64,000 nt of DNA from Candidatus Altiarchaeia archaeon (GCA_049299895.1 JBAQYF010000031.1:96644-160643), one strand, 5' to 3'; shown: positions 30,853-47,884, numbered from the stretch's first letter. The notes: generated from the sequence alone by a model not told the origin. Made by a program: numbers and translations.

Positions 30853-31860
30853 TCATGCGGGGATGCAACAGGGTATGCTGGTAGCCCCAAGATCGCAGGT
30901 TGTCCATGCGCAGTCCGTCGGGACCCAGCCTCCTTTGGAGAGTGCACATGGATTCGAGGTACAGGCTGCTTCACCCAGATATTGATCGCAGGTTTTCACT
31001 GGATCTGATGAACAGCAGCTATGGCATGTTTGCATGTCCTTGGCAGGCCGGTAGTAATAATGACACCCGGGATAGGAATGACAGTCGTCCACGTTGCACG
31101 GTGCCCCAAGCCCATATTGTGAGCTGCAGCAACCCGTGCCAAACGTCCCTGAACACGGTTTTATGCACTTGCAGCACTTTGCGCACGTGCCCACGTTCTC
31201 TTTCTCCGTCCCGCCCTGGCATATCTCGCCTGCCGCAGTATCGCAGCCGCATGTGAGGCCGAATGTCTCGCATGTTTCTTCTTCGACGCATTCGCAGCAC
31301 TTCTGACCCGGGTCGCATCCCGGAGCCGCGCTCTCCTTGCATTTCCTGCCTGCCGGGCAGTCTCCGCAGGTATAGCCGTATTCAGTGCAGGTCTTCTCGG
31401 GAGTGATGCAATTATTGCAGCAGGTATCCGGGCAATCCGTAACGTCGGCGATACTTCCACCGGATGCGCAGACCTGCCCATCGGGGCAGCCGCATTGTCC
31501 CCCTACGTCGGCGCAGTTCTTTTCTGTTACCGCGTCGCCCATGCATTTGTCCATCTGAAGAGTGGGAACAAGAGCGAATGCGAGCCCGAGGAAAGCGACG
31601 ACTATGACCAGTCCCGCGAAGGAATTAAGCATGTAGTCTTTTCCGAGGGTACGGTTGGCCGGGTTGCCCGTAGAGTACAGGAAGGCGCCCAGAGCAAACA
31701 GTATGAGAACGATGGCCGGCGCGAACCACAGGACCATGCATACGACCGCCTGGTCTATCCCGCGCAGGCGGTCGAGGTATCCTGCCGCGGAAGCGGCGGA
31801 TGATAGGAAAAGCAGGATGAGAATGAACAACGAAATCTTTTTTTTCATACCAGTAAACAT
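30853..31860 (-). CDS. Cysteine-rich membrane/secreted protein (~60 Cys in a ~230-aa ectodomain)
   Basis: A signal peptide, then a two-helix anchor with the loop 'LYSTGNPANRTLGKD', then extremely Cys-rich sequence (CxxC, CC, CxC motifs throughout). Confidence 0.6.
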   Translation of the reverse strand: MFTGMKKKISLFILILLFLSSAASAAGYLDRLRGIDQAVVCMVLWFAPAIVLILFALGAFLYSTGNPANRTLGKDYMLNSFAGLVIVVAFLGLAFALVPTLQMDKCMGDAVTEKNCADVGGQCGCPDGQVCASGGSIADVTDCPDTCCNNCITPEKTCTEYGYTCGDCPAGRKCKESAAPGCDPGQKCCECVEEETCETFGLTCGCDTAAGEICQGGTEKENVGTCAKCCKCIKPCSGTFGTGCCSSQYGLGAPCNVDDCHSYPGCHYYYRPAKDMQTCHSCCSSDPVKTCDQYLGEAACTSNPCALSKGGWVPTDCAWTTCDLGATSIPCCIPA

Positions 31861-31927
31861 ATATAAAAAACATATATAAATCAGTTATACCTTAATAGTA
31901 ACTGTGCCTTCAGGTGTTAAAAAGATT

Positions 31928-34900
31928 ATGAACCGGAACAAACGACTCTTATGCATATCCGTGGTTTTCGCGGCTTTTTTCTTGTCGTACTCCGGTCAGG
32001 CATTCGCCGAACTGGCCTCCTGCAGCAAGTATCAGTATATCAACGTCAAGATCGCGCCTGAGGATACGAAAAATCCAAGACTGGAGCAGTTCCACGGGAT
32101 AGACACTGGCATCCATGACAGTTTCATCATCCAGGGCCCTTACAATCCCACGTATATCTGCGGCATAATGCTCAACGAGAAGCTGGACTGGAGCACGGAT
32201 TCTCTTGCCGCAGCCTGGGCCGCCAAGGGTACGACCATTAAGAAGGACGGGATAAGCATCAAGGAGGACCTGGGCGAAAATGGGAACGGCTGGCAGCTTT
32301 GCAGCGATGAGGACTGCGATAGCAATGATGCCTGCAGGATAGACGTAGGATTGATAGCTGCGTCAGGCCCGCATTGCGCACCATACGGCGTAAGCGATGA
32401 AAAAGAGAAATCAAAGAACAGCCACGGAGCAGTGATGGTCTTTGAACAGAGGTATATGGAAATGGCTTCAGATAACGGAGATACGTCTCTTTCAGTGAGC
32501 CCGACAATATACCGGCCCCTCTACGACTTGTTATGCGACGCCAAAGGGTATTGGTACGCCTGCGACAAAGAATCGTGCGCATGCGTTGACGACTATTCCT
32601 GCGGCAGCACGTCGGAAGGAAAGTGGGATTTCTGCCAGTACGGATGCGATCCCGCAACTGGAAAATGCAAAAGCGGCGAAGCGGTCAAGGATTGCTCTCC
32701 TGCAGAGGTTGCCGTAGGCGAGAGTCTCGGGCCGTTCGTGGATTCATGCAACATTGATGTCACACTAGAAGGATTAGATCAGGGCAATAACAGGGTCACG
32801 CTAGGACCGGTCACCTATGGTAAGGACGGCCAAAAGGACCTGCTGGTGGTTGATTGCGACGGCAGCGAGCAGGTAGTGACTACTGAAGAGGACACGGGCC
32901 AGGGCGAGAAGACGTGTTATGTGACCTGTAGCGGCTTGTTTTATGAGGGGAACGTTTTGAAGCCTGCCCTGGAAGTATGTTATAGGTATCCTGAGCCTGA
33001 AGAAAAGGAAGAGCCCAAGCCCGGACCCACGACGACGACCACCACGCTTTCTGAGACGCCTATCCCGAAAAAGGATATCAAGCCAAGTCCTCCGGTGCCT
33101 GTTTGCAAGCCGTATTATGAAGTGATGACCGTCCGGGGCGAGTCCTCCGATACGCCGGAAGTAAAAGAACCCGGCGAGTGCAAGTATACTGAAACGATAG
33201 AAATAAACCGGTCGGATAATTGCAAGAAGATCGGAGGAGACCTGAAGGATGAGAATTATAAGAAGATAGACATACCCGTATGCAAAGCTACCGGGAGCGT
33301 AGTCGAAGAAATGGGAAAGGACGTCATCGGGAATCCTTACGACTTCGAAGGCGAGAGAAAGAGGAGGGGGGGAGTAATATGCGACGGGGGGATAACCGAC
33401 GTAGGGTGGAATATCCAGGGGGACGAAATAGAGATATCGGTGGAATCCATGAGCGGCGCCAACGCCTCGGGCGATTACGACGACAACTGCGAATACATGG
33501 TCTGTCTCTATAAAACGAACGGCGAGAGGATAAAGTGCGGCGACGGGTTGACGACCCAGTGGTATGCGCGGGCAGAAGAAGAGGTCTTCCAGACCAATTA
33601 TTCCTCCATGGGCCTGGGGCAGTTCCTGTCTCTTGACACGCTTCTCGGATGGAATATAGACGACCTCGGGGGCAATTTCCAGATAGAACTGTTCTCCCGG
33701 CTGGAAGGAAAGCAGCCGGAAACGAACATCGAGAACCAGACATTCGAACTGTGCAAAGAGGGTTTTCTCACGCTGTGCACCGCCAACGAAAGCGAGAAAC
33801 AGTTCTGGATATTCCCGACCAACGTGACAAAAACAGTTTACTGGGGAGTTGAAGGAAGCGAATATTCCAATCTTGCCACAAAAAAGGAAGGCACAAATGA
33901 AACTACATGGCTCCTGAACAATTCCAGGTACTTGATGATGGATCTCAAGACCTGCATGATAAGCGACAAGTACGGCACCCCCAACGAGATCAAATATTAC
34001 ACTATCGCAAACGACCCGGCTTACAGAATTTATGTGAACGAAAGTTACGGGAACGAGACATACTACAAAAAATACCTGAACATGTCCCTTGACTCGGACT
34101 ATCTTTACTGCTACAAGACGGACCTGCGCAACACCAGCGGATGCGATGAGATGAACTACAACTGGTACAGCTTCACAGGCTACAACATAGACGAAATAGG
34201 GCGGGCTTACAGAGAAGACCTGAAGAATTGGAACAAAAACCAGGCCGTCGACGAATTATCCACGCTGGACATGGGCCGATCGAAAGTTGTCCCGGTTTAC
34301 GACCCGCACCCCTGCTCAGTCTCCATGGACAAGGATTATTACAAGGAGCAGGACACTATCACCATCGCATACACGAACACTGGCATTGAATGCAGCATGG
34401 CGCTTTACCCGTGGTCTCCCGATAAATCGGCAGGGCCGGTTAAGGAATGGACAGTTTACGGTTCCGGAACGCAAAACTACACCCTGAAGAAGGAAGATGC
34501 CCCGGGCAACTATACGATAGTCCTGAACTGCGGCGAGTGCTACGTAAAAGACAGAGCCTACGTCAACGTATCCATTATACAGAACGTCATGTCGCGCGTA
34601 TTCACAGTGTCGCCGTTCCTAGAGGACATACGGAACTCCCTGACTTGGACGGAGACTGGAGATAGCACCCTGTACGCGGGAGCAGGCTTCGACAGATACG
34701 ACCGCTGCGCTTTGTCATGCAACGCGAGCGATACGAAATTCAGGCTGCTCTCCGGCTGCTCCAACGCCCGGGGATCCGATGCAGTAGCATGCTCGAACTG
34801 CACAGACGAAGGGAACTGCACGGTAGACTCAAACGGCAAATGCCCCGGCACCAAGGGAGACTGCTGGGACCAGGTATGCAGGATTAGGTCGAGGAACTAC

Positions 34901-37900
34901 GCCCTGGAAGCAGAGCCGGGCAAAAAAGGGGATTCATTCCACGGCGTGCCCTATAATGGAAAGTGCCCGGCAGGTTTCCCGAAAGAGCCCATACAAATAG
35001 ATTATTACACAAGGCCCGCGGACGATGCAATGTGGAGCGTCGACGCCGGCGCCCTGGACCAGGGTCAGGTTGCGACCAAATGCTATCTTGACGGGGGAGT
35101 TATAGCGACGACGACATTCGATTTCAATTCATTGAAGGATAACGGACCTCTTGTGGATATGGTTTTCGTCATAGACACATCGGGTTCCATGGATCCCACA
35201 TGGGGCACCCTATGCGACATTATAGACCAAAAAGTCGTAAATACCCTCCATGATGCGGGCATCAACCTGCAGCATTATATATACGGGCTGGATAAAATTA
35301 AAAAATGCGCCAAGGGAGTTATACCGCTGCACGAAGAGAGCTGGGGCCCTGGGCTGGACTGGGTTTGGGAAAACCACACAGGCTGGAGAGAGGGGGCCAA
35401 AAGAGTTGTCATTGCGATAAGCGACCAAGACGGGGAAAAGGGAGAAGACAACCCGGAGTGGGACGAAACAAAACAGAGAAGTGTCGCAGGACACCTCATA
35501 AGCAAGAACATAATAATGAACGGCCTCTTCGTGTCGGGCGGAGATCCAAAAGTCCAGACAGAGATGGCGACAGTTTCCGGCCTGACAGGGGGGATCACCG
35601 CTCCTTTCGGCTCCGCGGAAGCGGTCGCAGAGAAATTGATAGAAATTGCTAAGGACATCAAAAAACCGGTATACGTTGTCGCCAGCAACGCCACTATCTA
35701 CATGAACCAGACCGCGCCCAACGTATGGGTTCTCTACCAGAACGAGAGCCAGAACGTATCAGTCAACGTTTCCAAGACCAAGGCAAAGACATCGAACGAA
35801 GAGAACCCGGGCGAAGCGGCCCAGACCGAGGAACTGAACCTGACGGTCTATCCGTCTCTCATGATCGTAGAAACCGCCAATATGCCTTTCAATATCACTT
35901 ATGTGAACATAACAAGGAACGGCAGCAGATACAATATAACGAGGGTCTATGTTCCGAACGAAACGGGCGCGGACTATGGAAAAGAGTTCATCGTTACCTC
36001 GAAATTAATCCTGAATTACACCCTGCTGGAGTCTGCAGAGTCGTTCACGGTGGATCTGAACAACTCGTACTACACGCAGGTGCGAAGGGACATAGATTAC
36101 GTTGCCTGCGATTACAAAACATGCGGGGGGGGCAATTACATGAATTACACGCTCGCCCCGAATGGCAGAGGTAATACCGCAAGCTGCGGGAACATCAGCT
36201 CCAAGGGGGAGGGCAGCATAAAGACTTACAGGCAGGAAACGCAGACAGAGTTCCTGGAAAAGGAATACGGCGAAGTAGACACGCTCGAGGTGGATGCGGT
36301 AAGCCATCAGAACGTTCTCTGCAGCACCCTGGACCAGTTGAAGATAGAGGGGACGTTCGAAGAATACTATGACCCGGGCGGGAATCTTATGATATATTCC
36401 GCAAGCGACGACCCGGTTAAAATAACGATAACGCCCGACATACTGAGCGGTTTCACATTCATAGTGAACGACTCGGCCGTGGCATACAGCGCCCTCTATT
36501 ATCCCGCAAGACACCAGCTTACAAGAAAGGAGTCTGCGCCCTACTCGGACTGGGAGTGGAGAAGCCTCATAGACAAATACGGCTACCAGGATCAAAGGTT
36601 CGGCTTCCCGGAGCAGTGCAAGAAGCTGTGCCCGGCGCTGAGATGCAGCTGCCAGCCAAACGATCGGTTGAACGCCTCATGCATTGACTTTGAATCCGGC
36701 TCCTCCGCAAAAAGAACCGACTGTGCCTGCGTTCCCCAGGAATGTTACCCTGATCCCTGCGTCTCCAACAGGACGTACCACGAAGAGGAGGGAAGCGTTG
36801 TCGCTAACGGAGACTATGAGACGGGCGATCTTTCTTTCTGGAGCAAGACGGATGTAGGAGGTACCGCAGACGTCGTTCTCTCGGGTCATTCAGGTTACAT
36901 GCTCAAGCTCAAAGGAGGCGTGCAGCAGGTCCTTGCGAACCTCAGCACAAACCCGTACAACAAGGTATGCATAGAATACGCCCTCGCAGAATACAGCGCA
37001 GACGGAGGGATCAATCTCACCATCACTGTCGATGGGAAAGACAATTCTTTCGAAGTATGGAAGAACACGGAAGAATGCCCCGACTGCCTGGGCTGGAACA
37101 AGAAATGTTTTCCTGCAGACGGTTACATATCTAAAGTAAAGGTCGAAAGCAAAACCCTTGCGTGGATAGACAATATTAACTACGGCAAATACTACGACTA
37201 CGTGGGAATGAGCACATACGCGACTGTGAACCTGGAGTACATGGACTTCATAGCAAAGGGCTGGCAGTCCTTCGGCATGCTTAAAACCTCGGCCATAACG
37301 CACAATGCCAACACATACAGCTTCGAAGTAGAAAGCCTGCCCAGGGTTTACATGGATAACCGGAACTTCCAGATCCCAAAGGAGAAGGTAGCGGCCATAT
37401 TAAGCGAACTTGCAGCGTATTCCGGGCAGGAATCATCTGGGGAAGGGCTGACGGAACTGAAAAAAGCATTCGCGGAAAACGGAGTATCCCTGAATAAATA
37501 CGTGCAAGTAGAGGATAATAACGGGAACTGGCGCGTGATTAACGGAAAGAGGAATTACGATTTATACCGGGACGCAGACGGCAACATCAAGGTAATGGGC
37601 ATAGGCTATGAGTACGCGACACTCTCGGAGGACGATTACAAGAACGGCTATTTTGTGATAAAGACATTCTTCAAGGATCTCTACATCCCCATGTCTCCCA
37701 ATGTCAAGCAATCCAGAACAGGGGAAGACCCGATATGCTACGACGTAGACATCAAATTCAGGAAGCCCACCGTGCTCACAGTGGACGTATCGCCCAGCGG
37801 CTACACTCTTACGCCCGGAACAAGAGTGACTGCGACATACACGCTCACATATTATAACGGAACACCCGTCCCAAATCAAAAAGTATACGTGGATCTTGCA

Positions 37901-38506: not shown

Positions 38507-39813
38507 GAAACAAATTGATAACGATCATGGTAATAGCACTCTTCATATTGCCTTATCTACCCATACAATCGGCGGAAGCCGCTAACCCGTGGGACCAATT
38601 TAAGATATGGAAAAAGAAGGCCCCGGTAAAGGACCTTAGGAATTACCTGGCATACGAACACTATGAGCATGAAAAACTCATCCTGTATCTGCTCGTACTG
38701 GGGATATACACATGGAACATAACGACAGACCTCCTAACCAACCTGGAGACGTATGTCATTATGAACCCGAAGCCCCTGGAGCCCTCGGTCCTGAACGTTA
38801 TGAATTTTTTCATCTTCAACCTGCAGGTAGCATACATCCTGGCCATCGCCGGAACCGCTCTTTATATAATCTTTGCGGCGGGAACGCCCAAGAAGAGGGC
38901 AAAGGCCAAATCCATGATGGGAAGGCTCGTAGTGGGGATGCTCCTTGTAAGCGTATCGCCCTACATCATAAATCTATTCTTAAATTTCACATCCGGCATG
39001 GCCGCAACCATCCTGAACCAGGCGGACAGCACTGTTGCTGCGACAGTATATACTGACCTCATATGGAAAACATACTGGCCGAGCGTGGCCATAATACTGG
39101 CCCCCATGGTAGGGCACTCTCTTGAACAGTGGAGCCACCATGCAGTGGTAGATAAAATCAGAAATGATTATGTAGCATCAAGCGCAGACGCCAGAAGGGA
39201 CAACGTAGTAGAGCAACTCCTCGGAGCAGGAAACCCGGAAGCCATCATTGCAGATACTGCAGATACGATTATGAAGGATCAGGAGCAGATCATCAGAAAG
39301 GATGGAAACTTCAAGGCTGACGCTAAATCGTGGGGTCAAAAACAGGGTTTTCTAAGCTGGGGAACGCTGGAATCGAAGTTTAAACTCATGAAGATAGCCC
39401 CGAAGCCGGAACAGACCTTCGCCTTCCTTATGTCCGAGATAGCATTGATTATCGGGTTATATGGATTCCTCGCCCTGCGCTATCTTATGCTCATGATATG
39501 GACGGTCCTCTTCCCGCTTAGCCTGTTTTTGTCCTCTTTCGAGATGACCCGGGGCATCGGCAGGAACATGATAGAACAAACCATCTTTTGGTCCATACTC
39601 CAGGTATTCTACGCCGTGACCATAGACGTCATCGCAGTAGGTTTCACCATACTCCCGTCGGGATTCGGTTACTTCGGCCTCGGCCTGCAATTCCCGGGTA
39701 TAAGCTTATTTTTCATCAGCTTCTTCTCGGTTGCTGCGGCCTTTTTGTTATTGCTCACACCGATCCTGGTGCTGATGCTATCGCAGAGGCTCAGCCAGAT
39801 GGACGTGGGCTGA
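38503..39813 (+). CDS. Paralogous polytopic membrane protein 1 of 5 (unknown family)
   Basis: Its ATG overlaps the giant gene's TGA (ATGA). Signal peptide. Conserved blocks 'QVAYILAIAGTALYIIFAAGTPKKRAKAKS' and 'LRYLMLMIWTVLFPLSLFLSSFEMTRGIGRNMIEQTIFW'. Confidence 0.7.
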   Translation: MRNKLITIMVIALFILPYLPIQSAEAANPWDQFKIWKKKAPVKDLRNYLAYEHYEHEKLILYLLVLGIYTWNITTDLLTNLETYVIMNPKPLEPSVLNVMNFFIFNLQVAYILAIAGTALYIIFAAGTPKKRAKAKSMMGRLVVGMLLVSVSPYIINLFLNFTSGMAATILNQADSTVAATVYTDLIWKTYWPSVAIILAPMVGHSLEQWSHHAVVDKIRNDYVASSADARRDNVVEQLLGAGNPEAIIADTADTIMKDQEQIIRKDGNFKADAKSWGQKQGFLSWGTLESKFKLMKIAPKPEQTFAFLMSEIALIIGLYGFLALRYLMLMIWTVLFPLSLFLSSFEMTRGIGRNMIEQTIFWSILQVFYAVTIDVIAVGFTILPSGFGYFGLGLQFPGISLFFISFFSVAAAFLLLLTPILVLMLSQRLSQMDVG

Positions 39814-39845: not shown

Positions 39846-41117
39846 ATGCAAAGGAAAAAAGCAGTCTCTGGGTTGATAATACTTGGCATAATATTGAGCA
39901 TAGCAATGCTTTCATACAGCGTCAGCGCAGCTTCGAGTTCTAATGCCGGGCAACAGGGGATGTTTAAGAGCAGAAACCTCGGAGAAGCGGTCTATTATAT
40001 CAAAAGAACGGCGTACGCGTTCATGTCGCTCGATTACAGCAAAGAGGACATGAATTTTATCATAGCCAATTTCCGGGAGCTGATACTGCTTAATCCGGAG
40101 GCTTACAGCAGAGAAGTCCAGGATGGATTAAAATTCTTTCTGGGGATTATACAGCCCATGTACATATTATCCATAGCCGTTACCGCATTCTATCTTATAT
40201 TCATATCAGGCTCGCCGGGGGGTAGGTCCAAGGCAAAAACGTTCATGAAAGACCTGATTGTAGGGATGATAATAATATCTCTCTCTCCTATGCTGCTCCA
40301 GGGACTGATGAACCTGTCCGCGGAAATAACCAATGCCATCCTCGACCAGACCGATGTGTCAATAGTGACAAGAAACCTGGAGAGCACATTCGGGACCCCG
40401 GCAAAGAAGGGCATAACCGAGATCGGAATAGACGCATTGACAGGCCCGGTAATAGACCCGGCACTCATGGTCCTGACGGACGACACAAGTACCCTTGAGA
40501 ATCTGGGGAGCTATCTTCAATCTCATTCATGCACCCTGTGCATCATGCACTGGATGGTAACGTTCACGGAGATAGAATTAGGTTATTACACGTTTCTCCC
40601 GTTCCTGCTGGTAATATGGGGCATGGGAGTCTATTTTTTCCTGCGCTTCGCAATGATCACCCTGTTCATGATAATCTTCCCTCTGTCAGTGTTATTATAC
40701 TCCTTTGAAACAACCAAAGCAGTGGGAAGGAACATGCTGGAACAAACGATAATGTGGATATTCCTCCAGGTTTTCAGCGCAGTCATCGTTGTTTCCGTAG
40801 CACTCGCCCTGATACAGGCCAACCTGAGCCTGCTTACCCTACAGGGCATCCCGGAGGAGTGGGGCGCACTTATAGTAGAAGCGTTTTTGTTGCCTATTAC
40901 ATATCCTCTTGTAGCGGGAATTCCTTTGGATCCAGAGGCTATTATCACCCAGTTAACGAAGGTGGGGCCATTTGTCGGAATCCAGATCGGCGGAGGCATT
41001 AGTATCCCTAATATGCTTGCAACCCCCCTTATTGAATTCATACCCTTCGTCGGATGCTTCGTAATACTCGTTGCTCCTTTATTTATAATGAGGCTGTTCA
41101 AAGGATTCCTGCCCTGA
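39846..41117 (+). CDS. Paralogous polytopic membrane protein 2 of 5
   Basis: 'IQPMYILSIAVTAFYLIFISGSPGGRSKAKT' and 'FPLSVLLYSFETTKAVGRNMLEQTIMW'. Confidence 0.7.
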   Translation: MQRKKAVSGLIILGIILSIAMLSYSVSAASSSNAGQQGMFKSRNLGEAVYYIKRTAYAFMSLDYSKEDMNFIIANFRELILLNPEAYSREVQDGLKFFLGIIQPMYILSIAVTAFYLIFISGSPGGRSKAKTFMKDLIVGMIIISLSPMLLQGLMNLSAEITNAILDQTDVSIVTRNLESTFGTPAKKGITEIGIDALTGPVIDPALMVLTDDTSTLENLGSYLQSHSCTLCIMHWMVTFTEIELGYYTFLPFLLVIWGMGVYFFLRFAMITLFMIIFPLSVLLYSFETTKAVGRNMLEQTIMWIFLQVFSAVIVVSVALALIQANLSLLTLQGIPEEWGALIVEAFLLPITYPLVAGIPLDPEAIITQLTKVGPFVGIQIGGGISIPNMLATPLIEFIPFVGCFVILVAPLFIMRLFKGFLP

Positions 41118-41118
41118 G

Positions 41119-42774
41119 ATGAAAAATAAGACATTGATAATACTGGCGACAGCAATGCTGATGTTATTAGCGCTGGCTCCGCAGGGAGCAGCAAGACAGG
41201 GATGCTGCTCATCACATGGGGGGGTATGCCCGGATGTCTGCCCAAGCGGGGGCATAGGATACAAATGCTGCGACGGAAGCGCACTATCGGATACCTGTGC
41301 CCCATATTATCCGTGCAAGGCCGGTTCGGGAGAAACAAGCGAAAAAGAGACAGGACGACAGGGATGCTGCTCATCGCATTGGGGCGTATGCCCGGAGGTT
41401 TGCTCCGACGGCAAAACTATCGGATACAAATGCTGCGACGGAACCGCGCTGTCGGACAAATGTGCTCCCTATTATAAAGCCTGCGCACAAACAGCTTCCT
41501 CGGATGAGGATAAGTCAAAAAAGACCCCCGGAACAGACAAAGAGGACACCCCGGGAAAAAAGGCCCCGGGAGACTCGGGCACGGAAAAGCCCCCAGCAGA
41601 TAAGAGGCCTGCAGAGACCTCCCCGGGAGAAACGCCCAAATCAGAAAAAAAATCCCTGAAGGATCGCATATTCGGAACCGCGACCGAGATAGAAAAATAC
41701 GGAGAGGATTTGGAGGATAACAACCCGATTGCGCTAATGGCTAAAGGAGCTGCCGGAGCCACCGCAAAATATTTCGTAGTGGACGTTTTCATAAGGCTGT
41801 TCTTCCAGTACAACGTCGTATACCCCTGGATATTGAATTACGGAATGTCCTTCCCGAAAAACTACGAAGAAGCGATACTGGCCAATCCTTCTCTCATGGA
41901 TTCCTCCGCGAAAGGATTTAACCCGGAGATAACGAATGCCGTCGGATTTTCAATACGCCTGATGCTCCCATTCTATGTGATGGCAATAGTCCTCACCGCG
42001 GCGTACATGATATTCATCTCGGCCTCGCCCGAGGGAAGATCCAACGCAAAAAACCTCCTTAAAAGGTTATTAGTCTCCATGATATTCTTTTCGATGTCCC
42101 CCCTCATAATAGAAACGATGCTGGTAACCTCGCAGAGCATCTCTTCTGCGATCATGGGCCAGGCGGACCCGGCGAACGTAAGAACGGTCCTTGAAGGAGG
42201 GATGTGGGGTTCTTATATCATCTTCTGCAAGCTTGGGATAACCGACCTGGAAATAGCCATCCCTTACTGGACCGCCCTTTACGTCATGGCATGGCTCCCG
42301 TATATGGTGATAGGGATGAGACAGATAATGGTGACGCTCTTCTGCATGGTATTCCCCATAGGGATAGCCCTGTACTCATTCGTATTCCTGAGAGGCATCG
42401 GAAGAAAGATACTCGAACAGACCATTGTCTGGGTATACCTGCAGGCATTCCTGTCAGTGGCAATACTGGTCATCTCCCTTGGTTCAAGCTACTATTACCT
42501 GGTCCCGTCAGAGAATAATCCGAAGCTCACAAATTTTCCAATACCCGCAGTAATGGACCGAGGAATCCTCGCGCTATGGGAATGGCTCCCCGGAGTGAAC
42601 CAGGCCGCAAGCATGGACCCCACTACATTTATACCCGGGCTGCCTGCATCGTCCTGGACCCCTCCCCTGGGGATTACTTCAATCCTTGCATTTTCCATCG
42701 GTTCAATGGCCTACGCCCTGCTCATAGCAGTGCCTTTCATGATGCTCAGGCTGCTGGGCCATTTCCTCCCATAG
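41119..42774 (+). CDS. Paralogous polytopic membrane protein 3 of 5, with two N-terminal Cys-rich repeats
   Basis: Two ~50-aa repeats, 'QGCCSSHGGVCPDVCPSGGIGYKCCDGSALSDTCAPYY' and 'QGCCSSHWGVCPEVCSDGKTIGYKCCDGTALSDKCAPYY'. Then 'MLPFYVMAIVLTAAYMIFISASPEGRSNAKN' and 'FPIGIALYSFVFLRGIGRKILEQTIVW'. Confidence 0.7.
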   Translation: MKNKTLIILATAMLMLLALAPQGAARQGCCSSHGGVCPDVCPSGGIGYKCCDGSALSDTCAPYYPCKAGSGETSEKETGRQGCCSSHWGVCPEVCSDGKTIGYKCCDGTALSDKCAPYYKACAQTASSDEDKSKKTPGTDKEDTPGKKAPGDSGTEKPPADKRPAETSPGETPKSEKKSLKDRIFGTATEIEKYGEDLEDNNPIALMAKGAAGATAKYFVVDVFIRLFFQYNVVYPWILNYGMSFPKNYEEAILANPSLMDSSAKGFNPEITNAVGFSIRLMLPFYVMAIVLTAAYMIFISASPEGRSNAKNLLKRLLVSMIFFSMSPLIIETMLVTSQSISSAIMGQADPANVRTVLEGGMWGSYIIFCKLGITDLEIAIPYWTALYVMAWLPYMVIGMRQIMVTLFCMVFPIGIALYSFVFLRGIGRKILEQTIVWVYLQAFLSVAILVISLGSSYYYLVPSENNPKLTNFPIPAVMDRGILALWEWLPGVNQAASMDPTTFIPGLPASSWTPPLGITSILAFSIGSMAYALLIAVPFMMLRLLGHFLP

Positions 42775-42778: not shown

Positions 42779-43816
42779 ATGAAAAAAGAAAAGATCATAT
42801 CGGCTTTGATAATTGCCTTACTGTTCCTGCCGCTTATGGCATGCGCCGACGACGAGGACCCGACCAGAGCAGAGCCTTTAGCGAAGGTTATCGGCGGAGA
42901 ACTCGTAAAGATGTTGGCTAAATGGTGGATAGCTTACGCCGCCAAAGACCTTTTTGAGTTCCTTATCCGGATGACTGAACATCTGCGGGAATTTATCGTC
43001 GCCAATCCCCCGATGGAGGACATAAAAGGTGCGCAAGGCTTCTTTATCTCTCTGATGAGCCCGTTTTTCGTCCTGGGGATAGTGCTGACTTCGGCGTATC
43101 TCCTCTTGTACTCGGAGTCCCCGAGAGGCAGGTCCAAGGCAAAAGGGGTTCTTGTAAGGCTCATATATGCACTCATCCTCGTCTCTCTGTCCCCCTTGAT
43201 AATAGAGCTTCTTTTGACGTTATCCTCGGGCCTTGCCGGGAGTATAATCGATTACACCGACGTTGCTTTCGCAGGGACAATGTTATACGAGGGAGGCCGC
43301 CACATGTTCGACGTATTTTACTGGCTTACACTGTTACACCGTACCGGGGGGGTGGAACTGCTGCTCCTCTGGGAGACGTTCCTCTTAATCATGAACTTCG
43401 TGATAGCAATGAGGTATCTTCTCGTCATACTATGGAGCGTGTTGTTCCCGGTAAGCCTCCTCCTGTTCTCATTTACGCCCACTAAAAGAATAGGAAAAAA
43501 ATTCCTCCACCAGACCTTTTTGTGGACATTCGTGCAGGTCGGCTGGGCCATATCAATCCTCCTGATAAACGCATCGGTCAAAGGAATGGACGAGATCATG
43601 CCCGGGTATCCTGCAACAAAGATGGGACTAACATGCATATTCCTATTCCTCACTACCCCCAGGGTGATATGGGGACTGATGGACTGGCTCAGCCTGGGCG
43701 TAGAGGTCGTAGAGATAGTCAACGCGGCGCCGCTTTCAATGGGCGCACTGACGATGGACGAGATGAAGGTGGAAAGGGCAGTAATCGTAGAAGAACCGGC
43801 TCTGGAGGGGGTATAA
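42779..43816 (+). CDS. Paralogous polytopic membrane protein 4 of 5
   Basis: 'MSPFFVLGIVLTSAYLLLYSESPRGRSKAKG' and 'FPVSLLLFSFTPTKRIGKKFLHQTFLW'. Confidence 0.7.
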   Translation: MKKEKIISALIIALLFLPLMACADDEDPTRAEPLAKVIGGELVKMLAKWWIAYAAKDLFEFLIRMTEHLREFIVANPPMEDIKGAQGFFISLMSPFFVLGIVLTSAYLLLYSESPRGRSKAKGVLVRLIYALILVSLSPLIIELLLTLSSGLAGSIIDYTDVAFAGTMLYEGGRHMFDVFYWLTLLHRTGGVELLLLWETFLLIMNFVIAMRYLLVILWSVLFPVSLLLFSFTPTKRIGKKFLHQTFLWTFVQVGWAISILLINASVKGMDEIMPGYPATKMGLTCIFLFLTTPRVIWGLMDWLSLGVEVVEIVNAAPLSMGALTMDEMKVERAVIVEEPALEGV

Positions 43817-43819
43817 GAA

Positions 43820-44962
43820 ATGAAAAACATAAGCAGAAAAACACGCAAGAGAATAATAATACCCCTGGCGGCCATACTGGTCATAGGGTTAATGCTCAAC
43901 GCCAACGCATTTGGACCGCTGGTTTTCCTGGGCTACTTTGCCAAAGAATATTCTAAAGCCCTTCCAGGCGCCATATCAAAAGCCGCGGGGAATTGGGTTT
44001 CACTCACCATCCTGCGTTTGATTCTTGCGACTTTCATCTATTGGGGCGTCTTTTCCAGGTACGCAGACGTCTGCGACCACCTGCCGGAAGTCATCCTCAT
44101 GAACCCAAAAGTGATGATAGCAGACGCGGACGGCAACTACTACGGAAACCCCCCGGTGGAGAACCTCGTGAACGCATTCATCGGCATCGCGCAGCCGTTC
44201 TACGTGCTGGCGATAGTATCCGTCGCATTCTATCTATTATTCGTCTCAGGCTCTCCCCTGGGGAGGGCTAGAGCGAAAGCCAGCCTCATCCGGCTGGTCC
44301 TATCCATGGGACTGATAATCCTGACGATACCAATCATACAGCTATGCCTCGACATATCAGAGGTCTTGACCGGGAGCATCCTCGACATGGGGGATACGAC
44401 AACGGGCATAGCGGTCATGAAAGAAGCGATCTTCGGCCTGTGGGATAACTATTTTATGGCCATCCTCTTCAACTACTGGAACTCCGTTTATTTCCTGATG
44501 TTCTCGGGAGTGATGTTCTTTACGCCGTTCGTGATAGTAGGGCTGCGCTATTTTATGGTATTGTATTTTACGGCTCTATTCCCCCTGACAGTCCTCTGCT
44601 ATGCATTCTATTTCACGAGGAACATGGGAGGGCACATATTCAGGGAGACTTTCAGGTGGATATTCATACAACCCCTCTGGGCTCTGATACTCATAGCAGT
44701 ATCCGCCGCGACAATCTCCATGCCGCTTTTGAAAGACCCTACGGCCAGGATGGGCTTCGGCCTTGCGGCATTCATAGTCTTCATAATCGCGCCGCTCATA
44801 GTAGTCAAGGTCATGGACTGGCTGGCGATGCTCATGATAATACTGACGTCGATAGAGTTCCCGGGAATGCACGGCGTCGTGGGTATGATAGACGAATTGC
44901 AGGTTGAAGGCCCGGAAACCGAGGAGATAACTCCTCCTCCGCCTATCAGGCCTCATCCCTAA
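43820..44962 (+). CDS. Paralogous polytopic membrane protein 5 of 5
   Basis: 'AQPFYVLAIVSVAFYLLFVSGSPLGRARAKA' and 'FPLTVLCYAFYFTRNMGGHIFRETFRW'. Confidence 0.7.
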   Translation: MKNISRKTRKRIIIPLAAILVIGLMLNANAFGPLVFLGYFAKEYSKALPGAISKAAGNWVSLTILRLILATFIYWGVFSRYADVCDHLPEVILMNPKVMIADADGNYYGNPPVENLVNAFIGIAQPFYVLAIVSVAFYLLFVSGSPLGRARAKASLIRLVLSMGLIILTIPIIQLCLDISEVLTGSILDMGDTTTGIAVMKEAIFGLWDNYFMAILFNYWNSVYFLMFSGVMFFTPFVIVGLRYFMVLYFTALFPLTVLCYAFYFTRNMGGHIFRETFRWIFIQPLWALILIAVSAATISMPLLKDPTARMGFGLAAFIVFIIAPLIVVKVMDWLAMLMIILTSIEFPGMHGVVGMIDELQVEGPETEEITPPPPIRPHP

Positions 44963-45012
44963 AGTATAATATAGTATATATTCCAGAATATTGTATAATT
45001 ATGTAAAAAGCC

Positions 45013-46293
45013 ATGGCAGTAATACCCATACAGGAAGAATCCCAGGCCACGATAGAACAGAAAAGGGAGCAGGAGAAGATAATCAAAGTACAGGGCGGCT
45101 TTTCCCTGGAGCCCCAGACCATAGCAATAACCTTAGTCTCGCTGCTGATAGTGTTCTTCCTCTTCTTTTACACGGGCAACACACTAGACTTCCCCTATGG
45201 CGTGAGGATAGAAATCAGGGTCCTCATACCACTTCTCACGGTCGTCCTGATAGGCCTGATAATCAACAAATCCATCGTCAACTTCATGGAATACGAAAGA
45301 GGAGTCGTATTCAAATGGGGAAAATTCAACAGGATAGCAGGACCCGGCTGGGAAGTGATCTTCCCGCTGATGGAAAGATACATAAAAGCAGACCTGAGAC
45401 TGGAGGTAATAAGCCTCCCACCCCACGAAGTAGTCACAAAAGACAAGGTCCGATTCCTCGTATCCCCGGAGATATTCATGTACGTCTCCAACCCAAAAGA
45501 TGCTATCCTCAACGTCCAGAACTACAAAAAAGCAGTGATACAATACGTAACCAGCGCTCTTACCCACACCCTCGGGGACTCTACGTCGGACTACATAGTC
45601 GCGCACATGAACGAGATATCCGACATGCTCGGGCACGCAGTAGAGCACATAGCAAACACCCCCGGAAAAGAATGGGGCGTGGTCGTTCCCAGGGTGAAAC
45701 TCGCATACATAAGATTCCCGGACGAAGTGCAGTCCGCCATGCACAAAAAAGTAGCAAGCGAGCAGTTGAAACTTGCAGCCCATGAAAAGGCCGAAGCGAT
45801 AAAAACGGAAATAGACGCCATAAGAGAAGCAGGCGGAAAGCTCACCGACCCGGCGCTCACATACATGTACCTGGAATCGCTCGACAAAGTAGCCAAAGGA
45901 AAAGCAACAAAGATAGTACTGCCTCTCGAGATATCCAGAATGGCGGAAAGCATTACAAGGAGAACCAACGGCGCCATGGGAGGGGGCAGAGAAATGAATG
46001 TGCCGCCTGAAATGGTCCAGAGATACTCCGAGATGGTGGACAACTACGACAAAAGACTCAAAGACATAGAGGGCAGGTTAACCAGTTCAGAGGGAAAGGA
46101 AGACCGCAACCGCATGCTCAGAGAGGAATACAAGAAAAAACAGCTGGTAGACAAGACCATAAGAGAGGAAGCCGCACCAAAAGAGAAGCAGGCAGAAACG
46201 CCACGCGAAAAAACGGGCGCAAGCGACGACCGCGAATTGACCGAATACAAAGACAGGATCCGCGAGATAAAGAAAAGAGTGGGAATAGACTAA
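45013..46293 (+). CDS. SPFH/band-7 (stomatin/prohibitin-like) domain protein with C-terminal coiled coil
   Basis: N-terminal TM helix. 'RGVVFKWGKF...GPGWEVIFPLMERYIKADLRLEV...VKLAYIRFPDEVQSAMHKK' is the SPFH core. Confidence 0.8.
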   Translation: MAVIPIQEESQATIEQKREQEKIIKVQGGFSLEPQTIAITLVSLLIVFFLFFYTGNTLDFPYGVRIEIRVLIPLLTVVLIGLIINKSIVNFMEYERGVVFKWGKFNRIAGPGWEVIFPLMERYIKADLRLEVISLPPHEVVTKDKVRFLVSPEIFMYVSNPKDAILNVQNYKKAVIQYVTSALTHTLGDSTSDYIVAHMNEISDMLGHAVEHIANTPGKEWGVVVPRVKLAYIRFPDEVQSAMHKKVASEQLKLAAHEKAEAIKTEIDAIREAGGKLTDPALTYMYLESLDKVAKGKATKIVLPLEISRMAESITRRTNGAMGGGREMNVPPEMVQRYSEMVDNYDKRLKDIEGRLTSSEGKEDRNRMLREEYKKKQLVDKTIREEAAPKEKQAETPREKTGASDDRELTEYKDRIREIKKRVGID

Positions 46294-46296
46294 ACG

Positions 46297-46563
46297 ATGG
46301 AAAAACTGGACACAGACAACATATACGTAGACGAAGAAGAGAACTATGTAGCAATCAGAGTGAATACTAAGATATTCAAGATACATTCCATAATGAATGC
46401 CGCGGACGAATTCCTGGAGGAGTCCAACTTTATAGTGGACGGAGACCCTGAAAAGGACATAATAGTAAAATTCGTCCCTAAAAGACGATTCAACCGCCAG
46501 CAGCTCGCGGACCTCGCCCACAAGTTCTGCACCCTGCTCGTCACATTCAGTTCAACCAGGTGA
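46297..46563 (+). CDS. Hypothetical small protein (88 aa)
   Basis: An ORF starting 3 nt after the SPFH stop. No recognisable motifs. Confidence 0.35.
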   Translation: MEKLDTDNIYVDEEENYVAIRVNTKIFKIHSIMNAADEFLEESNFIVDGDPEKDIIVKFVPKRRFNRQQLADLAHKFCTLLVTFSSTR

Positions 46564-46573
46564 AAGAAAAAAA

Positions 46574-47188
46574 ATGTCTCTGCAAGAGGAACTAAAAAAA
46601 CTGGATTACAAAGGGATAGGAATACTTTTGATAATAGGCCTCGTCCTGGGAGTAATATACGGCGCCTTCTTTATCAATAATATCTTTTTCGGGATAGTCG
46701 CAATGGTAATAGCAGTCTTCGGAAGCTACTTTGTACTCTCGTCATTCTTCGAAGAAGATAAGCCGGAGAAGCTGGAACCAGGAGAGAAGATGATACTGCG
46801 CACCATGGACAGGGCGTACATACTGTTCCCGAAAAAAGGGGGTTTTCTTACCGCCCAGTCAGAAAGAGACCTTTCAGTATACCTGACGGACAGGAGGATT
46901 TTTGCGAAAAAATCGTCCGAGAAAGTCATATTTGAAAAGAACATAAGCGCGCTTTCCAGAGTCTCCACCGAAAAGAGAATGCTGACGAAATATCTGCGCC
47001 TAAGGTATTACTTGGAAGGAAAAGAAAAAGACGCGCTCCTCTTCGTCGGGGACACAGACATATGGATCAGGAGACTGGGCGAACTCGGAGTAAAAGAAAA
47101 AGACGCATACGAGTCGGACAAAGAGGAAGACAATAGTTTCGTGGAAGACGCAACCAGCCTGAAGAGCAAAGTAATGAAAAAGAAATAG
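46574..47188 (+). CDS. Membrane protein with bacterial-PH-like (YdbS/YdbT-type) domain
   Basis: Two N-terminal TM helices. The 'GEKMILRTMDRAYILFPKKGGFLT...LYLTDRRIF' pattern resembles bPH_2 domains. Confidence 0.4.
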   Translation: MSLQEELKKLDYKGIGILLIIGLVLGVIYGAFFINNIFFGIVAMVIAVFGSYFVLSSFFEEDKPEKLEPGEKMILRTMDRAYILFPKKGGFLTAQSERDLSVYLTDRRIFAKKSSEKVIFEKNISALSRVSTEKRMLTKYLRLRYYLEGKEKDALLFVGDTDIWIRRLGELGVKEKDAYESDKEEDNSFVEDATSLKSKVMKKK

Positions 47189-47197
47189 CAGACAGAC

Positions 47198-47884
47198 ATG
47201 AAAATAAAAAAATCCCGCCCAGACAGACGAATAATGCTCGCATTGATAATACTGATTACCGCATGCTGCCACACAGCCGCCGCCCAATCCGCAACGAGCA
47301 CAACCACGACTACACCCTCATCAGGAGGCTCAGACCTTGAACAATCAGGCTTTACAAAGGCGACCTGCACGTGCAAATGCAACGAAAAGAACATAAGCGC
47401 CGTAGGCATACTGAAGGCGGGAGCGTGGGAGAAGATTATATCCGTTGAACAGAACACCGCAGCAGGCAAATGCCAGGAGCAATGCGCGAAAACGTGCGGC
47501 GGAAGGACTACCTGCGCCAACCAGTCTGATTCGGATTGCAGCACATGCTGCGATACGTTCTGCACGAGCAGCTACAGCGGAGAAGCCGGAACAAGCACGG
47601 CAGCAGGCAAAACGCCGACCGATTTATGCAAAACATCATGCAAGAGCACGTGCAAATTCAAGGGAACCATAAACGGCATAACCGGCATAATATACATGAT
47701 AGCAGGGATGCTGGGCGCGCTCATGATAGCAATTCACGGGATAAGGATGGTAACGTCCCAGGACCCCCACGACAGGGACGCTGCAAAAAGCAGCATACTC
47801 CATGTGATAATAGCGTTGATCATAATTGCGATGGCTTCGGCGCTGGTCAACATGTTCATAACCATGGGGGGCTTGGAGATATAA
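47198..47884 (+). CDS. Small secreted Cys-rich protein with C-terminal helix-loop-helix membrane hairpin (pilin-like topology)
   Basis: Signal peptide, a Thr-rich linker 'ATSTTTTTPSSGG', ~20 Cys in ~100 aa, then two hydrophobic helices separated by 'HGIRMVTSQDPHDRDAAKSS'. Confidence 0.55.
   Translation: MKIKKSRPDRRIMLALIILITACCHTAAAQSATSTTTTTPSSGGSDLEQSGFTKATCTCKCNEKNISAVGILKAGAWEKIISVEQNTAAGKCQEQCAKTCGGRTTCANQSDSDCSTCCDTFCTSSYSGEAGTSTAAGKTPTDLCKTSCKSTCKFKGTINGITGIIYMIAGMLGALMIAIHGIRMVTSQDPHDRDAAKSSILHVIIALIIIAMASALVNMFITMGGLEI

What the first reader, a model, noticed from the sequence alone, without database searches (positions are those of the whole stretch)
30853..47884. Cell-envelope island: giant vWA surface protein, five tandem paralogous membrane proteins, Cys-rich modules, SPFH and pilin-like proteins
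Seventeen kilobases are devoted to secreted or membrane proteins of no recognisable family, packed tightly together. The giant gene, the five paralogs, SPFH and the downstream small genes are all on the + strand, with gaps of 0-50 nt and ATGA or near-ATGA overlaps. That layout implies co-translated stoichiometric assembly. This is a candidate for an undescribed archaeal surface structure, adhesion apparatus or secretion apparatus. The five polytopic paralogs could form a hetero-oligomeric membrane channel or platform that handles the 2192-aa vWA protein or the Cys-rich, pilin-like subunit.
Basis: partly seen in the sequence, partly recalled or inferred. Interest (0 to 1): 0.85.

Follow-up and report, generated by a model that had tools for sequence, protein, structure and literature searches.

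The report
Archaeal type IV secretion-like pilus module
This gene cluster in an uncultured Altiarchaeota archaeon is not made of orphan proteins: it is the membrane and pilus part of a chromosomal machine related to bacterial conjugation (type IV secretion), with five diverged copies of the normally pentameric VirB6 subunit, two pilins and a giant adhesin.

Summary
Genes 30853-47884 are as described: five paralogs, a 2192-aa protein, SPFH, a pilin-like protein, and gaps of -4 to 50 nt.

The proteins are recognisable:
- The 228-aa protein is a VirB2/TrbC-type pilin (Pfam T4SS_pilin, 7e-14).
- The paralog HMM finds the single-copy gene in pilin-X-VirB4 operons elsewhere.
- The giant protein carries a vWA domain.

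The array is old and ordered. Positions 1-5 form separate clades in four lineages (NJ bootstrap 90-100%), and five loci each hold exactly five copies.

The SPFH and 88-aa genes have orthologs directly after VirB4 in other Altiarchaeota. One relative carries VirB4 and the five-copy array side by side.

No VirB4 ATPase lies in this 64-kb window, so I infer it is encoded elsewhere.

Best reading: a vertically inherited, T4SS-derived pilus or contact apparatus with a hetero-pentameric VirB6 platform. The substrate is unknown. The closest parallels are Ced/Ted and the five VirB6 copies of Rickettsia. It is a new variant of a known kind.

The parts
29904..30788 (-). Upstream TM plus E/K-rich coiled-coil protein. 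The likely start is M63 of the 356-aa ORF. It is a conserved neighbour; whether it belongs to the system is uncertain.
   Evidence: A 54%-identical ortholog sits at the same position in L006. No Pfam hit.
30853..31860 (-). Second, divergently transcribed VirB2-like pilin: signal peptide, two-helix hairpin, and a 230-aa Cys-rich C-terminal extension (42 Cys).
   Evidence: Pfam T4SS_pilin at E=1.8e-4, below cut-off. jackhmmer from the 228-aa pilin gives 6e-4. The L006 ortholog is a plain 103-aa pilin-sized protein. Hydropathy.
31928..38506 (+). Giant (2192 aa) type-I surface protein with signal peptide, Cys-rich region, PT linker, vWA domain, 41 N-glycosylation sequons and a C-terminal TM anchor. 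Proposed adhesin.
   Evidence: Full-length ortholog in L006 at 35% identity and in L004 at 62%. A giant gene precedes the paralog array in L007 and L009 too.
35156..35683 (+). vWA domain of the giant protein, with MIDAS-type DTSGS.
   Evidence: Motif. Pfam VWA is only E=0.011 here, but 41 bits in the L007 ortholog at the equivalent position. The profile of four orthologs hits integrin alpha-L I-domains at E=2.6e-4. The same region is fused to a VirB6-like domain in P0052.
38503..39813 (+). VirB6-like paralog 1 (WAX07_10845). Its ATG overlaps the giant gene's TGA.
   Evidence: Position-1 clade has 98% bootstrap.
39846..41117 (+). VirB6-like paralog 2 (WAX07_10850).
   Evidence: Weak T4SS_pilin hairpin hit at E=3e-3. 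Weak NCBIfam pLS20_p028 conjugation TM protein hit at 1e-3. Position-2 clade 100%.
41119..42774 (+). VirB6-like paralog 3, with an N-terminal extracellular extension carrying two Cys-rich repeats.
   Evidence: Position-3 clade 100%.
42779..43816 (+). VirB6-like paralog 4. This is the shortest copy (core only) and the one that was modelled.
43820..44962 (+). VirB6-like paralog 5.
   Evidence: T4SS_pilin hairpin at E=3.7e-3. Position-5 clade 90%.
44963..45012 (+). 50-nt AT-rich spacer (TATAATATAGTATATATT...TTGTATAATTATG). Possibly an internal archaeal promoter.
   Evidence: Sequence. This is inference only.
45013..46293 (+). SPFH/Band 7 membrane protein (WAX07_10870). In other Altiarchaeota its orthologs lie directly after VirB4.
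   Evidence: Band_7 at 6e-25. Orthologs at 46-61% identity lie downstream of VirB4 in L017, L027, L031, L035 and L099.
46297..46563 (+). 88-aa cytoplasmic protein that always follows the SPFH gene.
   Evidence: Orthologs at 42-53% identity follow Band_7 after VirB4 in L017, L027, L031, L035 and L099. No family hit.
46574..47188 (+). 204-aa protein (WAX07_10880): N-terminal TM hairpin plus a PH-like domain. A conserved core partner placed between the array and the pilin.
47198..47884 (+). VirB2/TrbC-type pilin (WAX07_10885 by position) with a 120-aa Cys-rich N-terminal extension.
   Evidence: Pfam T4SS_pilin at 7e-14 (52 bits, cut-off 26.6) and TrbC at 1.3e-7. NCBIfam Mbov_0395 pilin-like conjugal transfer protein at 1.5e-9. 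A pilin also ends the cluster in L001, L009 and the L006 lineage.
47913..49865 (-). Convergent 650-aa protein with a C-terminal winged HTH and a weak DUF2226 match. It is a conserved neighbour and a possible regulator; whether it belongs is uncertain.
   Evidence: HTH_24 at 1e-5. A 45%-identical ortholog sits at the same place in L001.

Best explanation
The cluster encodes the membrane-platform, pilin and adhesin part of a chromosomal, vertically inherited machine derived from a type IV secretion system and found across Altiarchaeota.

Shown:
- The 228-aa protein is a VirB2/TrbC-type pilin, and the 335-aa protein is probably one too. Both carry Cys-rich extracellular extensions.
- The five paralogs have the VirB6/TrwI/DotA fold. 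Their N-terminal hairpin is pilin-like, as in CedA and VirB6. They belong to the same family as the single-copy gene in pilin-VirB6-X-VirB4 operons.
- The five positions are ancient and non-interchangeable.
- SPFH and the 88-aa protein are shared with the VirB4 operon of relatives.

Inferred:
1. The five paralogs assemble 1:1:1:1:1 into a hetero-pentameric stalk base in the cytoplasmic membrane, replacing the VirB6 homopentamer.
2. Sec-inserted pilins are extracted from the membrane and polymerised on this platform into a filament decorated with disulfide-rich domains.
3. The giant vWA protein, anchored by its C-terminal helix, mediates contact with a partner cell or surface. This would parallel the adhesin genes that precede the channel genes in monoderm conjugation operons such as pCF10 PrgB (my own knowledge).
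4. Energy comes from a PrgI/TraC-like plus VirB4 pair encoded elsewhere in the genome. SPFH/p88 and the PH-domain protein would act as membrane-proximal scaffolds or adaptors.

The cargo is not known. It could be DNA exchange as in Ced/Ted, proteins, or nothing beyond adhesion.
For: Pilin:
- Pfam T4SS_pilin 7e-14 and TrbC 1.3e-7. NCBIfam pilin-like conjugal transfer protein 1.5e-9.

VirB6 fold:
- AF2 pLDDT 91.5.
- Foldseek PDB top 7 are all TrwI/VirB6 of R388 (E=9e-4, prob 1.0).

Family links:
- hhalign gives 99.8% probability to an Altiarchaeota protein with weak Pfam TrbL and a precomputed TrbL_3 hit.
- 37 of 87 family members hit T4SS_pilin in the N-terminal hairpin. jackhmmer from the pilin recovers all paralogs. 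This matches the CedA/VirB6-pilin relationship reported in PMC9905601.

Context:
- The family HMM finds the single gene between pilin and VirB4 in more than ten loci at 1e-14 to 1e-20.
- L007 and L017 have the five-copy array next to pilin, PrgI-like and VirB4 genes.
- SPFH and p88 orthologs lie directly after VirB4 in five or more loci.

The number five:
- There are exactly five members in the window, L001, L009, L007 and L017.
- Positional clades have 90-100% bootstrap.
- VirB6 and VirB5 are pentamers and the pilus is five-fold symmetric (PMC12624023).

Vertical inheritance:
- GC content is uniform and neighbours are housekeeping genes. ThrRS is adjacent in a lineage only 40% identical. The window has no integrase, relaxase or T4CP.

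Adhesin link:
- P0052 fuses the giant's vWA region (41% identity) to a VirB6-like domain.
Against: - No VirB4, PrgI/TraC-like or Mrr/PAP2 gene lies anywhere in the 64-kb window, nor in about 12 kb of extra flank. I could not show that the source genome has one.
- Sequence-level membership in Pfam TrbL fails for the window paralogs. Profiles find no PDB VirB6.
- TM-scores to TrwI are modest, at 0.38-0.50.
- Hetero-pentamer formation, pilus formation and any substrate are untested.
- Some Altiarchaeota 'pilins' carry fusions of 600-1200 aa that seem hard to fit into a compact filament.
- For the L007 lineage, the five copies could not be mapped onto positions 1-5 (35% bootstrap).
Confidence: 0.7

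Rival explanations
1. An adhesion or surface-display system with no transport. The VirB2-like hairpins are only membrane anchors for Cys-rich, M23, PKD or MopE-type ectodomains. The VirB6-like proteins form a passive scaffold or microdomain with SPFH that holds the giant vWA adhesin. No ATPase and no pilus are involved.
For: - The window has no ATPase.
- Pilin-domain proteins in relatives carry very large ectodomains: 448 aa with Peptidase_M23, 615 aa, and 1173 aa with MopE/PKD.
- SPFH proteins organise membrane microdomains (general knowledge).
- The vWA-VirB6 fusion P0052 exists.
Against: - SPFH and p88 orthologs are operonic with VirB4 in relatives.
- L017 and L007 place the array next to VirB4.
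- VirB4 is 63-89% identical across Altiarchaeota, which implies a working machine.
- Small, plain pilins of 94-144 aa coexist in those loci.
Confidence: 0.18
2. A decaying remnant of an integrated conjugative element that has lost its ATPases and no longer functions.
For: - VirB4, T4CP and relaxase are absent from the window.
- The pilin is frameshifted and the giant gene truncated in the L001 relative.
Against: - All eleven ORFs are intact in the window.
- The same order is kept in lineages 35-60% identical, with positional clades at 90-100%.
- p204 is 50-86% conserved.
- There is no integrase or tRNA, GC content is flat, and housekeeping synteny is conserved.
- The L001 defects co-occur with fragmented RNA polymerase genes, so they look like assembly errors.
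Confidence: 0.05
3. A hetero-oligomeric membrane transporter or channel unrelated to T4SS. On this view, the resemblance to VirB6 is only that of generic helical bundles.
For: - There is no significant Pfam TrbL hit.
- TM-scores are at most 0.5.
Against: - All seven top Foldseek hits are TrwI.
- The family occupies the VirB6 slot in pilin-X-VirB4 operons.
- A bona fide VirB2 pilin ends the operon.
Confidence: 0.04

Closest known systems
VirB6/TrwI (R388) and DotA (Legionella Dot/Icm): the pentameric stalk or protochannel subunit of bacterial T4SS
   Same: - Polytopic helical fold. These are the best and only strong structural matches.
- The N-terminal hairpin is related to the pilin.
- The gene sits beside the VirB2 pilin, and beside VirB4 in relatives.
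- The number five matches the pentamer.
   Different: - There are five diverged genes (25-29% identity) in fixed order instead of one.
- No Pfam TrbL match.
- Each copy has its own signal-like N-terminal helix.
- It is archaeal and chromosomal.
- No VirB5, VirB8 or VirB10 was recognised.
Rickettsiales rvh T4SS (RvhB6a-e)
   Same: - Five VirB6 paralogs.
- No VirB5.
- The system is inherited vertically and is scattered over several chromosomal islets (PMC2653234).
- The paralogs carry divergent flanking extensions.
   Different: - It is bacterial and diderm, with VirB7-11 and VirD4 present.
- RvhB6 proteins are 670-1150 aa.
- No giant vWA adhesin, SPFH or PH-domain partner.
- The five-fold expansion must have arisen independently.
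Ced (Sulfolobales) and Ted (Thermoproteales) DNA-import systems
   Same: - They are archaeal, chromosomal, domesticated T4SS derivatives built from a VirB2-like pilin, a VirB6-like channel and a VirB4-like ATPase, with components sometimes separated by other genes.
- The CedA N-terminus is homologous to its pilin (PMC9905601).
   Different: - They have a single VirB6-like gene and no giant adhesin or SPFH.
- They occur in a different phylum.
- I did not test sequence relatedness to CedA or TedA.
- DNA import is demonstrated for Ced and is unknown here.
Monoderm MPF-FATA conjugation systems and the Patescibacteria T4SS
   Same: - The pilin matches Pfam T4SS_pilin and the Mycoplasma ICE pilin-like family.
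- The VirB4 of relatives carries PrgI/TraC-like and AAA_10 domains.
- Adhesin genes precede the channel genes in pCF10 (my own knowledge).
   Different: - No relaxase or coupling protein was seen, and the system is not on a mobile element.
- VirB6 is multiplied five-fold.
Giant SPEARE-type surface proteins of Nanohaloarchaeota
   Same: A giant membrane-anchored adhesin-like protein is genetically tied to T4SS parts in an archaeon (PMC10266531).
   Different: There, the giant protein itself carries the VirB4/TraG ATPase domain. Here the giant protein has a vWA domain and no ATPase, and it is followed by VirB6-like genes.

Membership tests
VirB2/TrbC conjugative pilin (Pfam PF18895, PF04956) | Profile match above the curated cut-off | tested here: met
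   For the 228-aa protein, T4SS_pilin scores 52.1 bits (cut-off 26.6) and TrbC 32.1 bits (cut-off 27.9). The 335-aa protein reaches only 22 bits, below cut-off.
VirB2/TrbC conjugative pilin (Pfam PF18895, PF04956) | Signal sequence followed by two hydrophobic helices joined by a short basic loop | tested here: met
   Hydropathy segments at 11-32, 158-186 and 194-226 in the 228-aa protein, and at 7-30, 34-68 and 75-104 in the 335-aa protein.
VirB2/TrbC conjugative pilin (Pfam PF18895, PF04956) | Polymerises with lipid into a helical pilus | not testable with these tools
   Needs purification and cryo-EM.
VirB6/TrbL family | Sequence profile match (Pfam TrbL PF04610 or TrbL_3 PF19590) | tested here: not met
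   No hit for any window paralog at E<=10. None of 87 family members hit at E<=0.01. Only a family member in L012 reaches TrbL at E=3.9e-4, below cut-off. PDB sequence profiles find nothing.
VirB6/TrbL family | VirB6 fold | tested here: met
VirB6/TrbL family | Encoded with VirB2 and VirB4 | tested here: inconclusive
   VirB2 is in the same operon in the window. VirB4 is adjacent only in relatives: L007, L017, L049-L062 and L096. It is absent from the window.
VirB6/TrbL family | Pentameric assembly at the stalk base | not testable with these tools
   No multimer prediction was available. The indirect evidence is exactly five ordered paralogs in five loci.
Minimal archaeal T4SS derivative (Ced/Ted-like: VirB2 + VirB6 + VirB4) | VirB4-family ATPase present | tested here: not met
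   It is not in the 64-kb window by Pfam scan of all ORFs of 150 aa or more or by tblastn. Presence elsewhere in the genome could not be checked. VirB4 is widespread in Altiarchaeota: 469 hits, at 63-89% identity among the listed Altiarchaeota-type hits.
Integrative conjugative element or conjugative plasmid | Relaxase, coupling protein, integrase, and atypical composition or a tRNA target | tested here: not met
   None were found in the window. GC content is 0.47-0.52 throughout. ThrRS synteny is kept in a distant lineage.
von Willebrand A domain | Profile match plus MIDAS DxSxS...T...D | tested here: inconclusive
   In the window protein, Pfam VWA gives E=0.011 over 14 aa, and a DTSGS motif is present. 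The L007 ortholog scores 41 bits. The four-ortholog profile hits integrin I-domains at E=2.6e-4 over about 200 residues.
SPFH/Band 7 | Pfam Band_7 above cut-off, with an N-terminal membrane segment | tested here: met
   88.7 bits against a cut-off of 23.6. Hydrophobic segments at 30-92.

The most novel reading that the evidence does not exclude
Altiarchaeota, the archaea known for a double membrane and for hami, carry a phylum-wide, domesticated T4SS. In this version the stalk is an obligate hetero-pentamer of five ancient VirB6 paralogs. It would build a disulfide-decorated conjugative-type pilus next to a giant vWA adhesin, for DNA or protein exchange between cells. That would make it the first hetero-oligomeric VirB6 stalk, and the first T4SS-type machine, described for this phylum. 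A more remote possibility, which nothing here supports, is that the machine helps assemble hami-like appendages, whose assembly factors are still unknown (PMC4460559).
Probability: 0.3. Interest if true: 0.8.

Novelty: new variant of a known kind. Interest (0 to 1): 0.66.

Why it matters
Why VirB6 forms a pentamer under a hexameric ATPase is an open structural question in T4SS biology. A natural system with five fixed, diverged subunits would break the symmetry, so each position could be labelled, mutated or imaged separately.

The finding also extends domesticated T4SS-like machines in archaea beyond Ced and Ted, to a phylum of uncultured subsurface organisms. In that phylum a VirB4 ortholog is highly conserved yet, as far as full-text searches show, undiscussed. 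It gives candidate genes for cell-cell contact, biofilm formation or gene exchange in Altiarchaeota. Finally, it assigns a function to a family of at least 433 sequence clusters that currently has no annotation.

Tried and rejected
- **The search for related loci with the five-paralog alignment.** It failed because no stretch was conserved enough. I redid it with orthologs of paralog 1.
- **Sequence searches of PDB.** The paralog profiles, the pilin and the giant protein gave nothing useful. The weak HincII match in the giant protein is treated as spurious.
- **KaiC-like ATPase at 49852-50571 as the motor.** A KaiC-like gene also sits near T4SS genes in L012. However, the two share only generic similarity, the adjacent large proteins are unrelated, and the window copy lacks a normal Walker A. 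Rejected.
- **p204 as VirB3 or VirB8.** hhalign to the PrgI/TraC-like protein was negative, and the fold is PH-like. Rejected.
- **Finding VirB4 in the source genome.** Flank look-ups returned only short Logan contigs without it. Cluster names and two candidate VirB4 loci belonged to other genomes. This remains unresolved.
- **Independent origin of the five copies in the L007 lineage.** An NJ tree suggested it, but bootstrap support is only 35%. I make no claim.
- **Homology between the giant protein and the long extensions of fused VirB6-like proteins.** It was found only for P0052.
- **Bacterial promoter and terminator scan**. It is not informative for an archaeon.

Full report
**Source and setting**

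The window is core chromosome of an archaeon with H4MPT-type C1 metabolism. It carries MCH, an archaeal ThrRS with its editing domain, PheRS-alpha, the exosome, the proteasome, FtsY and a large glycosylation cluster. Exact matches identify it as an NCBI MAG named 'Candidatus Altiarchaeia archaeon', on a contig of 160,990 bp. The locus tags are WAX07_10845/10850 for paralogs 1 and 2 and WAX07_10880 for the 204-aa gene. GC content is flat at 0.47-0.52 across the region. There are no tRNA genes. No integrase, relaxase or coupling protein appears among the ORFs of 150 aa or more.

**Check of the observation**

The + strand series runs giant, five paralogs, SPFH, 88 aa, 204 aa and 228 aa. Its spacings are -4 (an ATGA overlap), 32, 1, 4, 3, 50, 3, 10 and 9 nt.

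The five paralogs are 25-29% identical and share invariant motifs: NP, SGSPxGRxKAK between two helices, and FP...F...G...T..W...Q.

Cys-rich modules are real. The 335-aa protein has 42 Cys, paralog 3 has two GCCSSHGGVCP...CAPYY repeats, and the N-terminal part of the 228-aa protein has 16 Cys.

The vWA call rests on a DTSGS motif in the window protein, where Pfam gives only E=0.011 over 14 residues. Three further results make it credible:
- The L007 ortholog scores 41 bits on Pfam VWA at the equivalent position.
- The L006 ortholog gives E=6.5e-4.
- A profile of four orthologous segments hits integrin I-domains and collagen VI vWA domains in PDB (E=2.6e-4, about 200 residues aligned).

**What the proteins are**

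The 228-aa protein is a VirB2/TrbC-type pilin preceded by a Cys-rich ectodomain. It scores T4SS_pilin 7e-14 and TrbC 1.3e-7, and hits the NCBIfam pilin-like conjugal transfer protein of Mycoplasma ICEs at 1.5e-9.

The divergently transcribed 335-aa protein has the same hairpin at sub-threshold level (1.8e-4; 6e-4 by jackhmmer). Its ortholog in a distant lineage is a plain 103-aa, pilin-sized protein.

The five paralogs have no Pfam domain except weak T4SS_pilin hits over their first helical hairpin. Across the family, 37 of 87 members show this. A full HMMER search of 1.84 billion representatives found 433 clusters at E<=1e-3 and 310 at E<=1e-10. Many are fused to long extensions. All members that carry a name come from Altiarchaeota.

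An AlphaFold2 model of paralog 4, built on 87 family members, is confident (pLDDT 91.5, pTM 0.80). Its structural matches point one way:
- Foldseek's seven best PDB hits are all TrwI/VirB6 chains of the R388 T4SS stalk (E=9e-4, probability 1.0, TM 0.38-0.50).

A family member in locus L012 (hhalign probability 99.8%) carries a precomputed TrbL_3 hit and a weak Pfam TrbL hit. A pilin-like N-terminus followed by further helices is the architecture reported for CedA, TedA and VirB6 (PMC9905601).

Sequence-level membership in Pfam TrbL is not met, and PDB sequence profiles find nothing. 'VirB6-like' therefore rests on fold and context.

**Context**

I fetched 80 loci around relatives of an Altiarchaeota VirB4 and scanned them with the paralog HMM.

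- **Loci with more distant VirB4 (about 40% identity).** The HMM picks out exactly the single 330-370-aa gene in the order pilin, this gene, one gene, VirB4 (E=1e-14 to 1e-20). One such locus looks like a mobile element, with ParA and an integrase.
- **Altiarchaeota 'type A' loci.** The order is a VirB6-like fusion of about 1600 aa, a 174-aa gene, a VirB6-like gene of about 600 aa, a 375-aa gene, PrgI/TraC-like, VirB4, a pilin fusion, then three small pilins. The flanks are housekeeping genes.
- **The L007/L017 lineage.** The order is pilin, PrgI-like, VirB4, SPFH, a ~90-aa gene and an Mrr_cat/PAP2 protein. These converge on a five-copy array preceded by a giant vWA protein.
- **VirB4 conservation.** VirB4 is 63-89% identical across most of the 120 listed hits, nearly all from Altiarchaeota-type MAGs. 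These include Ca. Altiarchaeales archaeon IMC4.

The decisive link to the window is this. Its SPFH (46-61% identity) and 88-aa protein (42-53% identity) have orthologs immediately downstream of VirB4 in L017, L027, L031, L035 and L099/L100. The window cluster therefore shares parts with the VirB4 operon, although the window has no VirB4, PrgI/TraC-like or Mrr/PAP2 gene.

Some Altiarchaeota VirB4 loci have no VirB6-like gene within 10 kb (L023, L035, L047). Dispersal of the parts is thus normal in this phylum, as it is in Rickettsia (PMC2653234).

**The number five**

The window, L001/L005, L009, L007/L008 and L017 each contain exactly five family members in tandem. In the L006 lineage the five are visible in the gene table.

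An all-against-all BLAST matrix shows position-specific orthology. In a bootstrapped NJ tree on 304 HMM-aligned columns, positions 1-5 form clades with 98, 100, 100, 100 and 90% support. Each clade contains the window copy and its counterparts in lineages down to about 30% identity. The five-fold duplication is therefore ancient, and order and identity have been kept.

VirB6 and VirB5 are pentamers, the stalk and pilus are five-fold symmetric, and VirB6 is the platform that recruits VirB2 (PMC12624023). From this I infer a 1:1:1:1:1 hetero-pentamer. The inference is not demonstrated. Whether the L007 lineage reached five copies independently is unresolved (35% bootstrap).

**Other parts**

- **The 204-aa protein.** It is conserved (50-86% identity) and keeps its slot between paralog 5 and the pilin even in L009 (38% identity). 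Its model shows an N-terminal TM hairpin plus a PH-like domain. It is not VirB3-like.
- **The giant protein.** It has full-length orthologs (35% in L006, 62% in L004) and a conserved Cys-rich segment around aa 1500-1630 that is shared with the L007 and L009 giants. One family member, P0052, fuses a region 41% identical to the window vWA domain to a VirB6-like domain. This is a single fusion-type hint that the two interact physically.
- **Pilin fusions in relatives.** These include Peptidase_M23, which may play a VirB1-like wall-opening role, and MopE/PKD domains.

**Mechanism and its status**

Shown:
- the pilin identity;
- the VirB6 fold and the VirB6 slot in operons;
- the ancient ordered five-copy array;
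- co-conservation of giant, five VirB6-like genes, p204 and pilin;
- sharing of SPFH and p88 with VirB4 operons;
- the chromosomal, non-mobile setting.

Inferred:
- the hetero-pentameric stalk;
- pilin polymerisation on it;
- the giant vWA protein as contact adhesin;
- VirB4 supplied in trans;
- SPFH, p88 and the PH-domain protein as scaffolds or adaptors.

Unknown: the cargo. The Mrr_cat (PD-(D/E)xK) membrane protein next to VirB4 in relatives and the Ced/Ted precedent hint at DNA. I give that no more than about 0.3.

**Novelty**

Full-text searches found no paper that combines Altiarchaeota with VirB4, and none that discusses a T4SS of this phylum. T4SS derivatives in archaea (Ced, Ted) and five VirB6 paralogs (Rickettsia) are both known. 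I therefore class this as a new variant of a known kind. It is not categorically new.

Noticed in passing
window 53451-58874 (+): An 1807-aa protein with no Pfam hit. A globular N-terminal domain of about 190 aa is followed by about 1600 aa of E/K-rich coiled coil (E 21.5%, K 15.3%) with a recurring IEKERWKL.DE.KK motif. This explains the extreme AT skew (0.61-0.67) of this stretch. A DUF1616 membrane protein follows it.
   Followed up: partly
window 29904-30788 (-): The TM protein upstream of the cluster has a similar E/K-rich coiled coil with periodic W. It is conserved next to the cluster in L006 (54% identity). It may belong to the same envelope system or to the coiled-coil family of the 1807-aa protein.
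   Followed up: partly
window 49852-50571 (-): A KaiC/RecA-superfamily protein (Pfam ATPase, 7e-21) whose Walker A position reads YPGVQNSPF instead of GxxGxGKT, so it is probably catalytically inactive. It overlaps the start of the 650-aa HTH/DUF2226 gene.
   Followed up: partly
window 149-3232 (+): LuxE-like acyl-protein synthetase and LuxC-like acyl-CoA reductase, with an AMP-binding enzyme, sit at the head of a sugar-modification and glycosyltransferase cluster (to about 14400). This is an unusual pairing for an archaeal glycan locus.
   Followed up: no
L017 13957-15681; L007 13116-14918; L099 13779-15422: A 547-600-aa membrane protein with Mrr_cat (a PD-(D/E)xK nuclease fold), with or without PAP2, is a conserved neighbour of VirB4 in Altiarchaeota. 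It is a possible pointer to DNA as cargo. It is absent from the window.
   Followed up: partly
L022 10804-13247, L023 16096-18691, L047 12835-16191 (- strand): Next to Altiarchaeota VirB4 there are arrays of 3-4 further proteins (190-400 aa) that contain a pilin-type hairpin (jackhmmer 1e-23 to 1e-28). The VirB6-like HMM does not match them. They form a second, uncharacterised hairpin-containing family.
   Followed up: no
L001/L005 15312-15847 and 1-6474: In the closest long relative, the pilin is split by a frameshift and only the last 376 aa of the giant gene are present. They lie beside fragmented RNA polymerase genes. This looks like long-read assembly error or chimerism, not biology.
   Followed up: partly
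L009 14819-16165; L013 5288-8809; contig of P0017 17886-19733: T4SS_pilin domains are fused to large ectodomains: Peptidase_M23 (448 aa), MopE/PKD (1173 aa) and an unknown domain (615 aa). It is an open question whether such proteins can polymerise or act as anchored minor subunits.
   Followed up: no
P0052 (1028 aa, JGI metagenome): A single protein joins a vWA region 41% identical to the window giant protein (aa 85-251) to a C-terminal VirB6-like domain (aa 738-1025).
   Followed up: partly
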